Source of the DNA: an archaeon
Lineage (GTDB): Archaea > Nanobdellota > Nanobdellia > CSSed11-243R1
Assembly: GCA_024277205.1 (NCBI GenBank)
Contig: JAJRVP010000021.1
Coordinates: 25,130-89,129, forward strand
Length of the DNA: 64,000 nucleotides
Direction: 5' to 3'
Positions 3,247-4,260 of the stretch are shown in pieces; the stretch's first letter is position 1, and each line of letters begins with the position of its first letter. Below the pieces are notes generated by a model. The model did no database searches and was not told the origin of the DNA. It saw only the letters and a program-made list of their open reading frames with translations. A program made the position numbers and the translations under genes.

Positions 3247-3426
3247 TGGGCCCGCCCGGATTCGAACCGGGGACCTCCCGCATTTTGCAACCCTTTCTTT
3301 TGGTTGAGCTTTTCTTTCCCAAAGAAAAGGTCACGTCAAGCGGACGCCATAACCATTCCCCCCACCTTCTTCCCTTCTTTTGGTAAAGCTTTTCTTGGGA
3401 AGAAAAGGTTTCTAGGCCACGGGCCC
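3247..3426 (-). tRNA. tRNA-Val(GAC) with two introns: D-loop about 3358-3411, and canonical 37/38 at 3283-3333
   Basis: Minus-strand read: GGGCCCG TG GCCT AG[54 nt]AATGGTTAT GGCG TCCGC TTGACG[51 nt]T GCGGG AGGTC CCCGG TTCGAAT CCGGG CGGGCCC A. Acceptor, anticodon and T stems all pair. The spliced length is about 75 nt. The gene is a GC-rich island in AT-rich DNA, and CCA is not encoded. Confidence 0.85.
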
Positions 3427-3443
3427 GTAATATGTTCTCTAAA

Positions 3444-3458
3444 CTATTTATTTAAAAA
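3444..3458 (-). promoter_or_regulatory. TATA box/BRE-like promoter for tRNA-Val
   Basis: Minus strand TTTTTAAATAAATAG lies 18-32 nt upstream of tRNA position 1. The same motif precedes tRNA-Ile, and a near-identical one precedes SRP RNA. Confidence 0.5.
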
Positions 3459-3948
3459 TTTGTCTATTGTCGCTCAATAATTTTTCTAATTCTTGTTTGA
3501 TTTCATCCATTGTTGTTACAAAATCGTTTAGTGTATCTGCAAACCCTGTCATTATAACTGTTAGGTGTGTCAGTCCCATAGGATTGCTCAATAATTTTTC
3601 GCTTGTTAAATAAAATCCTTTTTCACCATACATAATCTTTTGTGGAGATTTATCCAAATTATTAATTCCATATTGCAATACTTCAATTGGTTTTTGAAAT
3701 TCCCAATCAACACCAACATATTGTCGTGGTGATTCCACAGTATTTAGTCTCCACATCCAAGCTCTTTCTTTTACCTTTTCAAAATCTTCTGTTGGAAAAA
3801 TTAATCCGCAAAGTTCTGGTGCATCAATCTCTCTAAGTGGCGCATAAAAAACAAATGTTTGGACCCCATGTGGAACATCTATATTGCTGTTATTATACTT
3901 GCTTTGGATTTCTTCAACTCTTTTTTTAATTTCTTCAATCATATTCAT
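3448..3948 (-). CDS. Hypothetical protein
   Basis: Long ORF. The listed N-terminal extension (3949-4020) overlaps tRNA-Ser, so the start is taken at ATG 3948 or ATG 3942, preceded by GGTGAT. No recognisable motif. Confidence 0.55.
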   Translation of the reverse strand: MNMIEEIKKRVEEIQSKYNNSNIDVPHGVQTFVFYAPLREIDAPELCGLIFPTEDFEKVKERAWMWRLNTVESPRQYVGVDWEFQKPIEVLQYGINNLDKSPQKIMYGEKGFYLTSEKLLSNPMGLTHLTVIMTGFADTLNDFVTTMDEIKQELEKLLSDNRQIFK

Positions 3949-3957
3949 CACCAAAAG

Positions 3958-4213
3958 CGCCGGGGGTGGGAATTTCCTTCGGCAAAACACGGCTTTTGCC
4001 GAATTTCGAATTCGTGGCACCCCCAGAGTTCTCTTTTCCGGGCGCGCTTTTCTCTTTCAAGAGAAAATGGTGCTCCCACGCATCCCGAAGGAAACTGGCT
4101 ATCAACGCACCTTTTTGGTCGAGCTTTTTTTCAAAAAGGTCGTAGCAGGCCAGCGCCATAACCAGATTTCCCACACTTTTCTTTGGAAGAAAAGTTTTCT
4201 AGGCGACCCCGGC
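3958..4213 (-). tRNA. tRNA-Ser(GCU) with multiple insertions: D-loop about 4169-4198, canonical 37/38 at 4101-4142, and about 97 nt inside the T-arm (3971-4074)
   Basis: Minus-strand read: GCCGGGG TC GCCT AG[~30]AATCTGGTTAT GGCG CTGGC CTGCTA[42]A GCCAG, then a long variable arm TTTCCTTCGGGATGC, GTGGG[104 incl. T-loop]CCCAC CCCCGGC G. Acceptor, anticodon and T stems pair. Length after removing the insertions is about 87 nt, which fits a class II tRNA. The T-loop splice boundaries could not be resolved by eye. Confidence 0.65.
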
Positions 4214-4260
4214 AAAACTTTTTATTTTCTTTAACAAAACTTTCTTTTTAAGAAAGTTTT
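4214..4260 (-). repeat. Intron-like hairpin module filling the spacer between the SRP RNA 3' end and the tRNA-Ser 5' end
   Basis: Minus strand: AAAACTTTCTT AAA AAGAAAGTTTT GTT AAAGAAAATAAAAAG. This is the same pyrimidine arm / loop / purine arm / spacer / second purine arm layout as the tRNA introns. Confidence 0.6.

What the first reader, a model, noticed from the sequence alone, without database searches (positions are those of the whole stretch)
3247..4260. One hairpin-module family makes up tRNA introns, an RNA-gene spacer and mRNA 3' ends
Every insertion in the three tRNA genes is built on the same plan: a short tag, a pyrimidine arm, a 2-5 nt loop, a purine arm, a 7-10 nt spacer that repeats the tag, and a second copy of the purine arm.

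Examples, read in the sense of the host gene:
- Val 37/38: GACC TTTTCTTT GGG AAAGAAAAG CTCAACC AAAAGAAAGGG
- Val D-loop: AACC TTTTCTT CCC AAGAAAAG CTTTACC AAAAGAAGGG
- Ser 37/38: CGACC TTTTT GAA AAAAAG CTCGACC AAAAAGG
- Ser T-arm: CACCA TTTTCTCTT GAA AGAGAAAA GCGCGCCCGG AAAAGAGAA
- Ile 27/28: CAATC TTTTTGC AA GCAAAAAG CTTGACC AAAAAGAT

The same plan appears outside tRNAs, at 4214-4260 (between SRP RNA and tRNA-Ser), at 11448-11497, at 6229-6276 and at 62631-62673.

The pyrimidine arm can pair with either purine arm. For Val 37/38 the distal pairing ACCTTTTCTTT/AAAGAAAGGGT gives 11 bp. Each module therefore has two mutually exclusive folds, and the distal fold brings the two module ends together as a splicing endonuclease substrate would require.

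This could be a mobile intron-derived element, a general EndA-dependent RNA processing signal reused on mRNAs and ncRNAs, or a structured terminator.
Basis: partly seen in the sequence, partly recalled or inferred. Interest (0 to 1): 0.85.

Follow-up and report, generated by a model that had tools for sequence, protein, structure and literature searches.

The report
Triplex-type hairpin repeat in archaeal introns
A 40-base folded repeat, common in tiny DPANN archaea, builds most introns of three tRNA genes here and also sits flush behind other genes; its three arms co-vary like the strands of a triple helix, which had not been noticed.

Summary
The repeat family is real. A strict scan finds 8 copies in the window against 0.6 expected. 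A covariance model built only from distant metagenome copies recovers five window copies at E 1e-7 to 1e-3.

- The "spacer" does not repeat the tag. It pairs with it, extending the hairpin across a C·C mismatch. This closing stem is 3 bp here and exactly 4 bp, with full covariation, in the commonest subfamily.
- The "second purine arm" is in general the mirror image of the first, not a copy. It starts 2-3 nt after the hairpin.

Pyrimidine arm, purine arm and mirrored purine arm on one strand is the signature of a class II intrastrand triplex motif.

Copies are always sense to the host transcript. They lie in tRNA and 16S/23S rRNA introns, or flush against the 3' ends of tRNA, 5S RNA, SRP RNA and ORFs.

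Close relatives differ in which introns they carry, and one intron sits in tRNA-Val here but in tRNA-Ser in relatives. The element therefore behaves as mobile.

Intron copies have bulge-helix-bulge junctions; the copies behind ORFs do not. The function of the third arm is unknown.

The parts
3247..3426 (-). tRNA-Val(GAC) gene with two introns. The mature form is 73 nt.
   Evidence: Removing 3356-3411 and 3283-3333 gives the same sequence as the exons of relative L001 (12403-12577) and matches the intron-less gene of L002 (2230-2302). ARAGORN and Rfam miss the gene.
3356..3411 (-). Val D-loop intron (56 nt). Module at 3375-3411: closing stem AAA/UUU, C·C mismatch, CUUUUCUU/AAGAAAAG, linker AC, mirror arm CAAAAGAA. 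A further purine tract follows.
   Evidence: 92% identical to the D-loop intron of tRNA-Ser in L001 and L002. R1 E 2e-5. Relaxed bulge-helix-bulge with a 4/4 central helix, AACC/GGUU.
3283..3333 (-). Val 37/38 intron (51 nt). Module at 3294-3333: UGA/UCA, C·C, CUUUUCUUU/AAAGAAAAG, AC, CAAAAGAAA.
   Evidence: R1 E 1e-7. Bulge-helix-bulge with H1 5 bp, H2 3/4, H3 12 bp using the distal pairing, which is also the minimum-free-energy fold.
3958..4213 (-). tRNA-Ser(GCU) gene with four introns. The mature form is 85 nt.
   Evidence: The spliced sequence matches the exons of tRNA-Ser in L002.
4167..4198 (-). Ser D-loop intron (32 nt). A truncated module: hairpin ACUUUUCUU/AAGAAAAGU only.
   Evidence: Relative to L001 it lacks 24 nt (CTTTACC...GAAGG) between the first purine arm and the tail. 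The bulge-helix-bulge is weak.
4101..4142 (-). Ser 37/38 intron (42 nt). Module at 4112-4142: CGA/UCG, C·C, CUUUUU/AAAAAG, AC, CAAAAA.
   Evidence: Relaxed bulge-helix-bulge: H1 6, H2 3/4, helix with one bulged G. R1 score not significant.
4011..4074 (-). Ser 53/54 intron (64 nt). Module at 4029-4069: UUUUCUCUU/AAGAGAAAA, 10-nt G+C linker, exact mirror arm AAAAGAGAA. It is closed by the tag/tail helix GCACC/GGUGC.
   Evidence: Mirror 9/9 against direct 7/9. Bulge-helix-bulge with H2 4/4 (CGUG/CACG) and H3 5 bp.
3972..4004 (-). Ser 59/60 intron (33 nt). A 10-bp hairpin, UUCGGCAAAA/UUUUGCCGAA. Not a member of the family.
   Evidence: H2 3/4, H3 10. No purine mirror arm.
4225..4261 (-). Module filling the spacer between the SRP RNA 3' end (4261) and the tRNA-Ser 5' end (4213): CAAA/UUUG, A·U position, CUUUCUU/AAGAAAG, then UUAAAGAAAA.
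   Evidence: R1 E 1e-3. SRP RNA at 4261-4530. Relative L001 also has a module directly after its SRP RNA.
15035..15151 (+). tRNA-Ile(GAU) gene with one intron at 27/28 (15064-15105). Module at 15063-15098.
   Evidence: Rfam tRNA match, 42.5 bits. Strict bulge-helix-bulge: H1 6, H2 4/4, H3 9 bp made by the distal pairing. Here the distal arm is a direct copy (7/8), not a mirror (5/8).
11459..11498 (-). Module filling the 49-nt gap between the prolyl-tRNA synthetase stop codon (11498-11500) and the short-chain dehydrogenase start (11447).
   Evidence: R1 E 4e-6. It shares the CUUUACC spacer and the GGUGGG tail with the Val D-loop intron. No bulge-helix-bulge. Pfam hits.
6231..6276 (-). Module starting 1 nt after the stop codon of ORF 6277-6780: GCA/UGU, 2x2 mismatch, UUUUCUCUUU/AAAGAGAGAA, ACU, exact mirror arm AAGAGAGAAA, then UUUUAUC.
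   Evidence: Mirror 10/10. Kept at the same site in L001 (9484-9529) and absent in L033, which has a T7 run there.
62635..62674 (-). Module overlapping the stop codon of the Lhr-like helicase ORF (62674-63939), in a convergent gap: GCA/UGC, 2x2 mismatch, UUCUCUUU/AAAGAGAA, ACU, mirror arm AAGAGAAA, then UUUUAUC.
   Evidence: R1 E 5e-7. Mirror 8/8. No bulge-helix-bulge.

Best explanation
The region holds multi-intron tRNA genes of an AT-rich DPANN (Nanoarchaeota-type) archaeon. Most of their introns, the SRP RNA/tRNA-Ser spacer and three sites behind stop codons are copies of one ~40-nt structured repeat that is widespread in archaea.

Real anatomy (shown):
- a short closing stem: 3 bp in this genome, exactly 4 bp in the commonest subfamily
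- a pyrimidine-pyrimidine mismatch, usually C·C
- a 7-15 bp stem of a pure pyrimidine arm against a pure purine arm
- a small or variable loop
- a 2-3 nt linker (AC, ACG or ACU)
- a second purine tract that mirrors the first.

Three blocks in this order on one strand are what a class II intrastrand purine-motif triple helix requires.

Most likely mechanism (inferred): the element is a selfish, structure-dependent repeat. It spreads at the DNA level by recombination, gene conversion and local duplication.
- It persists inside essential stable-RNA genes because its flanks rebuild a bulge-helix-bulge junction. The transcribed copy is then cut out by the splicing endonuclease and the exons are ligated.
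- It also persists flush against gene 3' ends, where extra transcribed structure is harmless.
- The junction helix is made by tag plus tail. When the arms are nearly symmetric, it is made by the pyrimidine arm plus the mirror arm.

Not settled: whether the third arm acts in the RNA or in displaced single-stranded sense DNA.
For: Family and structure:
- Counts against shuffles.
- A model trained on distant copies finds the window copies and gives 173 matches in 580 kb of related loci.
- 98.8% of cells are paired and 10 of 12 pairs change on both sides (173 cells). 0 of 500 shuffles reach this, and slid controls give at most 13 cells.
- Among 69 distinct copies, the C·C mismatch is present in 68. 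The closing stem has 65-68 Watson-Crick pairs at each of positions 1-4, all four pair types occur at position 4, and positions 5-6 are unpaired.

Mirror rule:
- Mirror against direct copy: 24 against 2 full matches among 52, and 16 against 1 among the 34 most asymmetric arms.
- 0 of 107 in the antisense control.
- The mirror arm starts at a fixed offset of 2-3 nt in 89 of 100 copies.
- 26 different arm sequences, 23 of them asymmetric, keep all three relations perfectly.
- The third arm follows the purine arm at non-Watson-Crick positions in 27 of 34 cases.

Context:
- All 23 tRNA genes found near copies are co-oriented with them.
- Copies occur in tRNA introns, in 16S/23S rRNA introns, and right after tRNA, 5S and SRP RNA.
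- 15 of 121 copies start within 5 nt of a same-strand stop codon, against 3 for the opposite strand.

Mobility:
- tRNA-Val is intron-less in L002, carries 37/38 and T-loop introns in L001 and L033, and D-loop and 37/38 introns here.
- The Val D-loop intron matches the Ser D-loop intron of relatives at 92%.
- The same 23-nt core lies in the Val T-loop intron of L001 and the Ser 37/38 intron of L033.
- Tandem duplications with periods of 48-206 nt.
- The site behind ORF 6277 is filled in the window and L001 and empty in L033.

Splicing:
- Bulge-helix-bulge junctions at the inferred intron borders.
- The spliced products equal intron-less relatives.
Against: - No transposase, reverse transcriptase or homing endonuclease is linked to the element, and I saw no target-site duplications. 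The mobility mechanism is therefore unknown.
- The sharp placement at stop codons and RNA 3' ends, the strict sense orientation, and sequence conservation above that of neighbouring coding DNA (about 94% against 71-79% between the window and L001) suggest a host function rather than pure selfishness.
- Purine-motif triple helices are reported not to form in RNA (stated in PMC4666352). The mirror arm may therefore act in DNA, or through another kind of contact.
- The mirror statistics come mostly from loci picked with a seed pattern that fixed one arm type. Only the non-seed copies are unbiased.
- Within the window the mirror rule is decisive for only 3-4 copies and fails for 2.
- There are no expression or splicing data.
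Confidence: 0.5

Rival explanations
1. A host 3'-end element. The module is a functional structure placed at the end of transcription units. It would act as a pause or termination enhancer ahead of oligo-T, or as a folded 3' cap that protects RNA from 3' exonucleases. Intron copies would be secondary.
For: - Copies abut the 3' ends of tRNA, 5S RNA, SRP RNA and ORFs, in sense orientation.
- The two ORF-flank copies of the GCAC subtype, and their L001 counterpart, are followed by GUUUUAUC-like T tracts.
- Other genes in the window end in T tracts at the same position.
- The module behind ORF 6277 is more conserved than neighbouring coding DNA.
- The genome encodes the termination factor FttA.
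Against: - Only 3 of about 50 genes in the window have it.
- At least as many copies lie inside tRNA and rRNA introns, several per rRNA gene, where a terminator would be harmful.
- Most pyrimidine arms have T runs of only 3-4.
- The copy at 11459-11498 sits between two co-directional genes 49 nt apart.
Confidence: 0.2
2. This is an RNA switch with two exclusive Watson-Crick folds, proximal and distal. The distal fold presents a bulge-helix-bulge, so the module is a general splicing-endonuclease processing signal, also on mRNAs and between RNA genes.
For: - The distal pairing is the minimum-free-energy fold and forms the junction helix in Ile 27/28, Val 37/38 and Ser 37/38.
- The commonest arm, GAAAGAAAG, is mirror-symmetric, so it can serve both pairings.
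- A T-loop intron in L083 repeats even the C·C mismatch in the distal pairing.
Against: - With asymmetric arms the distal arm is a mirror image, not a complement of the pyrimidine arm.
- It follows the purine arm at mismatched positions.
- Ser 53/54 and several metagenome introns close through a separate tag/tail helix.
- Copies behind ORFs have no bulge-helix-bulge, and the one candidate at the SRP/Ser spacer is weak and cuts 1 nt inside the tRNA.
- A truncated intron with only one purine arm persists in tRNA-Ser.
Confidence: 0.12
3. A DNA-level triplex element. The selected structure forms in the displaced sense (non-template) DNA strand of heavily transcribed genes. There it affects transcription, replication or recombination, as proposed for bacterial intrastrand triplex repeats. 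RNA folding would be incidental.
For: - The block order is exactly the class II intrastrand triplex motif, and purine-motif triplexes form in DNA but reportedly not in RNA (PMC4666352).
- Copies are enriched in highly transcribed stable-RNA genes and co-oriented with transcription.
- Frequent tandem duplications and rearrangements around copies parallel the genomic instability reported for the E. coli motif (PMC4666352).
Against: - Intron copies must fold as RNA to be spliced.
- The closing stem shows a few G·U pairs in the sense strand.
- Loop 2 is 6-10 nt and contains a paired segment, unlike the simple triplex repeats described.
Confidence: 0.15
4. Chance low-complexity sequence: T-rich and A-rich tracts of an AT-rich genome that merely look alike.
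For: - A loose hairpin-plus-repeat scan is not above background.
- An arm-only pattern gives chance-like hits in viral contigs.
Against: - The strict scan gives 8 against 0.57 expected.
- Model E-values reach 1e-7 in the window and 1e-17 elsewhere.
- Covariation in 10 of 12 pairs.
- Fixed mismatch, linker and mirror offset.
Confidence: 0.01

Closest known systems
Archaeal bulge-helix-bulge introns that transpose between tRNA genes (Thermoproteales; Fujishima et al. 2010, as summarised in PMC4090602 and PMC10714607)
   Same: - Short protein-free introns at canonical and non-canonical tRNA positions.
- Near-identical introns in different tRNA genes and positions.
- Gain and loss between close relatives.
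- Junctions of bulge-helix-bulge type.
- Unknown transposition mechanism.
- DPANN archaea were already known to carry many disrupted tRNA genes (PMC5829648).
   Different: - The host lineage is DPANN.
- The introns are built on one defined module, with a mismatch-containing hairpin and a mirrored purine arm.
- The same module also occurs in rRNA introns and, outside any intron, flush against the 3' ends of tRNA, 5S RNA, SRP RNA and protein genes.
- The papers I could search do not describe these non-intron copies or the three-arm rule.
Intrastrand triplex repeats of bacteria (BoxC / PIT elements / TM-ECO; class II purine motif; PMC4666352)
   Same: - Three consecutive blocks on one strand in the order pyrimidine, purine, mirrored purine.
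- Short, highly conserved, multi-copy and mostly outside coding sequence.
- Linked to local rearrangement.
- Function unknown.
   Different: - The bacterial motif is G/C-rich, has simple loops of 1-6 nt, and shows no reported orientation bias or link to RNA genes.
- This one is A/G-rich.
- It has a covarying closing stem and a C·C mismatch built into the second loop.
- It is strictly sense to transcripts and doubles as intron material.
REP/BIME-type extragenic palindromes of bacteria
   Same: Short hairpin repeats that accumulate just behind genes, are transcribed with them, and vary between strains.
   Different: - No associated transposase was seen here.
- It has a third, mirrored arm.
- It occurs inside stable-RNA genes as spliceable introns.
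Triple-helix RNA 3'-end elements (ENE of PAN and MALAT1 RNAs; recalled from general knowledge, not tested)
   Same: A U-rich strand and A-rich strands arranged so that three strands can stack at an RNA 3' end. MALAT1 also lies next to a tRNA-like structure.
   Different: - Those are U·A-U (pyrimidine-motif) helices with two U-rich strands.
- Here there are two purine strands and one pyrimidine strand, a geometry not established for natural RNA.

Membership tests
Archaeal bulge-helix-bulge (BHB) intron | The insertion interrupts a tRNA or rRNA gene, and its removal restores a canonical mature RNA. | tested here: met
   Spliced Val (73 nt), Ser (85 nt) and Ile (75 nt) equal the exons or intron-less genes of relatives. 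Metagenome copies interrupt archaeal 16S and 23S rRNA.
Archaeal bulge-helix-bulge (BHB) intron | Two 3-nt bulges separated by a 4-bp helix at the exon-intron junctions. | tested here: met
   Ile 27/28 is strict (6/4/9). Val 37/38 is 5/3/12. Ser 53/54 has H2 4/4 and H3 5. Ser 59/60 is 3/4 and 10. Val D-loop has H2 4/4. Ser D-loop and Ser 37/38 are only relaxed.
Archaeal bulge-helix-bulge (BHB) intron | The same junction motif around the non-tRNA copies (needed for the claim that they are endonuclease substrates). | tested here: not met
   No candidate matches the module ends at 11459-11498, 6231-6276 or 62635-62674. The SRP/Ser spacer has only a weak candidate (H1 2, H2 3).
Archaeal bulge-helix-bulge (BHB) intron | Cleavage by the splicing endonuclease and ligation of the exons. 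| not testable with these tools
   There are no RNA data. The endonuclease gene is not in the part of the window I annotated.
Transposing tRNA introns (Thermoproteales type) | Near-identical intron sequences in non-orthologous tRNA genes or positions. | tested here: met
   The Val D-loop intron matches the Ser D-loop intron of L001 and L002 at 92%. The core AAGAAAGCGTGCACGGAAAGAAA lies in Val T-loop (L001) and Ser 37/38 (L033).
Transposing tRNA introns (Thermoproteales type) | Presence/absence differences between close relatives. | tested here: met
   tRNA-Val carries 0, 2, 2 and 2 introns at different positions in L002, L001, L033 and the window.
Class II intrastrand purine-motif triplex motif (PIT / BoxC / ITxF) | Blocks on one strand in the order 5' pyrimidine, purine, reverse-Hoogsteen purine, with the first two reverse-complementary. 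| tested here: met
   98.8% of cells are paired, with covariation. Arms are pure pyrimidine and pure purine.
Class II intrastrand purine-motif triplex motif (PIT / BoxC / ITxF) | The third block is the mirror image of the purine block (A·A-T and G·G-C triads). | tested here: met
   24 mirror against 2 direct full matches, 16 against 1 for strongly asymmetric arms, and 0 of 107 in the antisense control. 26 arm variants. Within the window it is decisive for 3-4 copies and not met for Ile and Ser 37/38.
Class II intrastrand purine-motif triplex motif (PIT / BoxC / ITxF) | Short connecting loops (1-6 nt in ITxF, 0-10 nt in Hoyne et al.). | tested here: inconclusive
   Loop 1 is usually 1-3 nt, but can be 7-20 nt. 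Loop 2 is 6-10 nt and includes the paired 3-4 nt of the closing stem.
Class II intrastrand purine-motif triplex motif (PIT / BoxC / ITxF) | A triple helix actually forms. | not testable with these tools
   The folding tools model Watson-Crick and wobble pairs only. The literature states that the purine motif does not form in RNA (PMC4666352).
Archaeal oligo-T intrinsic terminator | A run of about five or more T on the sense strand just behind the gene. | tested here: inconclusive
   Arms are mostly T3-T4 interrupted by C. The copy at 6231-6276 has T5, and it and 62635-62674 are followed by TTTTATC.
Any curated RNA family (Rfam 15) | A match to a covariance model. | tested here: not met
   No family matches the modules at gathering score, or at E up to 10, in 3000-4700.
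Miniature inverted-repeat transposable element | Terminal inverted repeats flanked by a direct target-site duplication, with related autonomous elements. | not tested
   I did no systematic search. By eye the variable bases next to the arms are complementary, not direct repeats, and I saw no transposase nearby.

The most novel reading that the evidence does not exclude
The module is an undescribed structured nucleic-acid motif in which three strands co-evolve as an intramolecular triple helix: pyrimidine arm, purine arm and mirrored purine arm, held in register by a fixed 4-bp stem, a C·C mismatch and a 3-nt linker. It is conserved across distant archaea. This fold, in RNA or in the displaced sense DNA strand of heavily transcribed genes, would be what lets the element spread into and persist in tRNA, rRNA and gene 3' ends. 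It would then be the vehicle of archaeal intron mobility.
Probability: 0.35. Interest if true: 0.9.

Novelty: new variant of a known kind. Interest (0 to 1): 0.8.

Why it matters
How archaeal tRNA and rRNA introns arise and move is an open question. [quoted passage not shown]

- **A tracer for intron movement.** The intron material here is a recognisable, searchable module that also exists outside introns. Filled and empty sites, insertion preferences and copy histories can therefore be traced across genomes.
- **A testable structure.** The three-arm covariation points to a triple-stranded fold. If it forms in RNA, it would be a natural purine-type triple helix, which is thought not to exist. 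If it forms in DNA, it links triplex-forming repeats to intron gain.
- **Annotation.** These modules hide tRNA genes from standard finders: two of the three here were missed by both ARAGORN and Rfam. They also inflate rRNA genes. That helps explain the "missing" tRNAs of DPANN genomes.

Tried and rejected
- ARAGORN and Rfam did not delimit the tRNA genes. Two of the three were missed entirely, so I set the borders by comparison with relatives.
- A loose hairpin-plus-repeat scan was not above background, so I dropped it for a strict one.
- An arm-only pattern in viral contigs gave only chance-like hits.
- Exact-protein look-ups for the primase-like protein and the dehydrogenase found no record, so I got no closer strains.
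- My first parse of the closing stem was one base out of register. One search corrects it.
- The mirror test on the model-fitted alignment is blurred, because arms of different length are forced onto 8 columns. I rely on the ungapped analysis.
- Counts of G·U against A·C pairs, used to decide between the RNA and DNA levels, were not informative (18 against 16).

Ideas considered and dropped:
- **H/ACA guide RNA.** There is a linker AC-N after the stem, but no pseudouridylation pocket and no ANA box.
- **tRNA-like minihelix cut by RNase P to make upstream 3' ends.** The hairpin includes the discriminator base of the upstream tRNA, and the ACCA sequence is limited to this clade.
- **The 4-bp closing stem as the central helix of a bulge-helix-bulge.** The flanks do not fit either orientation.
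- **Downstream H-DNA roadblock.** It would not need the pyrimidine arm or the closing stem.
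Full report
**What is in the region**

The window is AT-rich (32% G+C). It comes from a DPANN archaeon: its primase-like protein is 83%, 79% and 74% identical to those of three Nanoarchaeota/Nanobdellati metagenome-assembled genomes (L001, L002, L033).

On the minus strand lie, in order, SRP RNA (4261-4530), tRNA-Ser(GCU) (3958-4213), a small ORF and tRNA-Val(GAC) (3247-3426). tRNA-Ile(GAU) lies at 15035-15151 on the plus strand. ARAGORN finds none of the three tRNA genes, and Rfam finds only tRNA-Ile.

Comparison with the relatives fixes the exon borders:
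- tRNA-Val has introns in the D-loop (3356-3411) and at 37/38 (3283-3333).
- tRNA-Ser has four introns: D-loop 4167-4198, 37/38 4101-4142, 53/54 4011-4074 and 59/60 3972-4004.
- tRNA-Ile has one intron, at 27/28 (15064-15105).

The spliced sequences equal the exons or intron-less genes of the relatives.

Yes, with corrections.
- A strict scan gives 8 hits in the window against 0.57 expected. A loose scan is at background.
- The three tRNA genes hold seven introns, not five. One (Ser D-loop) is a truncated copy that has lost 24 nt relative to L001. One (Ser 59/60) is an unrelated hairpin.
One fills the SRP RNA/tRNA-Ser spacer. The other three start 0-1 nt from, or overlap, the stop codons of the prolyl-tRNA synthetase gene, ORF 6277-6780 and an Lhr-like helicase gene.
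- Only 3 of about 50 genes in the window have such a copy. The others end in plain T tracts.

**The family is large and old**

I scanned metagenome contigs with a 22-nt pattern taken from the relatives (AAGAAAGCGTKNACGGAAAGAA). It returned 78 loci.
- The hosts are archaeal (archaeal SSU and LSU rRNA).
- They are only distantly related to the window's organism (proteins 27-48% identical).

A covariance model built from 18 of these distant copies finds the window copies full length, on the sense strand, at E 1e-7 to 1e-3. It gives 173 matches in 580 kb of related loci. Rfam has no matching family. Five literature searches found no description of the element.

**Corrected anatomy**

The "tag" and the "spacer" are not repeats of each other; they pair. 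Among 69 distinct copies:
- A C·C mismatch is present in 68.
- It is followed by a closing stem of exactly 4 bp. All four pair types occur at the outermost position, and the next two positions are unpaired.

On the model alignment 98.8% of cells are paired and 10 of 12 pairs change on both sides. No shuffle out of 500 reaches these values, and slid controls are near zero.

In the window the closing stem is 3 bp (UGA/UCA, AAA/UUU, CGA/UCG, CAA/UUG, GCA/UGC). The linker is AC or ACU. The palindromic look of spacers such as CGUGCACG, and the shared ACC, made the spacer seem to repeat the tag.

**The second purine arm is a mirror image**

I used hairpins that were not selected by the search pattern and that have asymmetric arms.
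- The tract after the linker is a full mirror image of the first purine arm in 24 of 52, and a full direct copy in 2.
- For strongly asymmetric arms the counts are 16 and 1 of 34.
- The antisense orientation gives 0 of 107.
- The mirror arm starts 2-3 nt after the closing stem in 89 of 100 copies.
- Twenty-six different arm sequences, 23 of them asymmetric, keep pyrimidine arm, purine arm and mirror arm in perfect register. One is a 15-nt arm matched 15/15.
- Where the hairpin has a non-Watson-Crick position, the third arm follows the purine arm, not the pyrimidine arm (27 of 34).

In the window the rule is clear for Ser 53/54 (9/9), 6231-6276 (10/10) and 62635-62674 (8/8). It is compatible with four others. 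It fails for Ile 27/28 and Ser 37/38, whose A5-6 arms fit a direct copy.

A pyrimidine block, its purine complement and a mirrored purine block on one strand define the class II intrastrand purine-motif triplex, known from the BoxC/PIT/TM repeats of bacteria (PMC4666352). That paper also states that this motif forms in DNA but not in RNA. I could not test formation of a triplex.

**Where copies sit**

All 23 tRNA genes detected near copies are co-oriented with them. The contexts are:
- tRNA introns in the D-loop, anticodon loop and T-loop
- introns in 16S and 23S rRNA, with several per gene in L053, all in sense orientation
- the first bases after tRNA, 5S RNA and SRP RNA genes
- the first bases after stop codons (15 of 121 copies within 5 nt for same-strand ORFs, against 3 for opposite-strand ORFs)
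- tandem arrays with periods of 48-206 nt

.

**Mobility**

- tRNA-Val is intron-less in L002. It has 37/38 and T-loop introns in L001 and L033, and D-loop and 37/38 introns here.
- The Val D-loop intron is 92% identical to the D-loop intron of tRNA-Ser in L001 and L002.
- One 23-nt core lies in different tRNA genes and positions in L001 and L033.
- The site behind ORF 6277 is filled in the window and L001, and empty in L033.
- L033 has a T-loop intron made of two modules in inverted orientation.

This matches the "intron transposition" described for Thermoproteales (PMC4090602, PMC10714607). Here, however, copies also lie outside introns.

**Splicing junctions**

- tRNA-Ile 27/28 has a strict bulge-helix-bulge (6/4/9 bp). 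Val 37/38 has a good one (5/3/12).
- In Ser 53/54 the ends are joined by a separate tag/tail helix, with a perfect 4-bp central helix. The module then sits in the enclosed loop.
- Several metagenome introns close in a similar way, through pairing between sequence 5' of the pyrimidine arm and the tail after the mirror arm, and in some also between the hairpin loop and the tail.
- Copies behind ORFs show no matching motif.

It is not the general rule, and there is no support for endonuclease processing of the mRNA-flank copies.

**Most likely explanation**

I commit, at about 50%, to a selfish structured repeat.
- It spreads at the DNA level.
- It survives in stable-RNA genes because its flanks rebuild a spliceable junction.
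- It survives at gene 3' ends because extra structure is tolerated there.

Shown: the family, its structure, the three-arm covariation, the contexts, the orientation, gain and loss, and junction motifs in introns.

Inferred: splicing, the mode of spread, and any triple helix.

The main rivals are:
- a host 3'-end function, as terminator aid or RNA cap (about 20%)
- a DNA-level triplex role on the displaced sense strand (about 15%)

The sharp placement at gene ends, the strict orientation and the high conservation keep the functional rivals alive.

**Verdict**

This is a real and unusual element. It is best filed as a new variant of two known kinds: mobile archaeal introns and intrastrand triplex repeats. 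The open question is well defined: what the mirrored third arm does, and in which nucleic acid.

Noticed in passing
window 3247-3426 and 3958-4213: Two multi-intron tRNA genes are invisible to ARAGORN and to the Rfam tRNA model. Standard annotation of this genome would report tRNA-Val(GAC) and tRNA-Ser(GCU) as missing.
   Followed up: yes
window 3972-4004: The Ser 59/60 intron is a different kind of hairpin (UUCGGCAAAA / UUUUGCCGAA, 10 bp) with no purine mirror arm. Not all introns here belong to the family.
   Followed up: partly
window 3303-3306, 3383-3386, 4118-4121, 11468-11471, 15089-15092: In this clade the hairpin is followed by ACCA in all five copies of the ACC subtype. A 12-13-bp hairpin plus ACCA resembles a tRNA acceptor minihelix with discriminator and CCA end. 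The widespread subtype has ACGG instead, so this may be coincidence.
   Followed up: no
L072 3557-3708; also L070, L058, L085, L092; L090/L119: Modules form tandem arrays of 55-57-nt units with identical linkers. In L090/L119 each unit carries the first 12 nt of the adjacent tRNA-Glu gene, as if a module plus a piece of tRNA had been duplicated.
   Followed up: partly
L053 27-6639 (rRNA operon): The 23S gene spans 4067 nt and the 16S gene 2070 nt, against models of 2987 and 1478 nt. At least seven module copies lie inside them, all in sense orientation, which implies several module-bearing introns per rRNA gene.
   Followed up: partly
L060 185-226, L063 2162-2205, L117 4531-4575, L107 3600-3643: In copies with a 7-8-nt loop (GGAUGGC, GGCUGGC, GGGCUGGC), the sequence just after the mirror arm is complementary to the loop (CCAUCC, CCAGC, CCAGCCC). 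The changes are compensating, giving a pseudoknot-like or alternative long-range pairing.
   Followed up: no
L055 11299-11330, L071 7908-7935, L112, L076, L094: Many copies that follow genes are themselves followed by a second small hairpin of the form AAUUxxxx-UUCG-xxxxAAUU, directly after GGAAAGAAAGGG. The element may be larger in some lineages.
   Followed up: no
L033 14050-14158: The T-loop intron of tRNA-Val in this relative consists of two modules in inverted orientation sharing their distal arms. This is the only place where I saw an antisense copy inside a transcript.
   Followed up: partly
L047, L053, L097, L099, L101, L120 (rRNA introns): A subfamily has a conserved 20-nt insert in the hairpin loop that forms its own small stem-loop (for example GGGAGC UGAC GCUUCC).
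   Followed up: no
window 3231-4576: SRP RNA, tRNA-Ser, a small ORF, tRNA-Val and another small ORF follow one another on one strand with gaps of a few bases. Shine-Dalgarno-like GGUGAU sequences lie right after the tRNA genes. This suggests one transcript that mixes RNA genes and coding genes.
   Followed up: no
window 8152-10056; 42213-51989: The window encodes the termination and cleavage factor FttA (aCPSF1). It also encodes two adjacent proteins of about 1620 aa, one with a bacterial Ig-like domain and one a subtilase.
   Followed up: no
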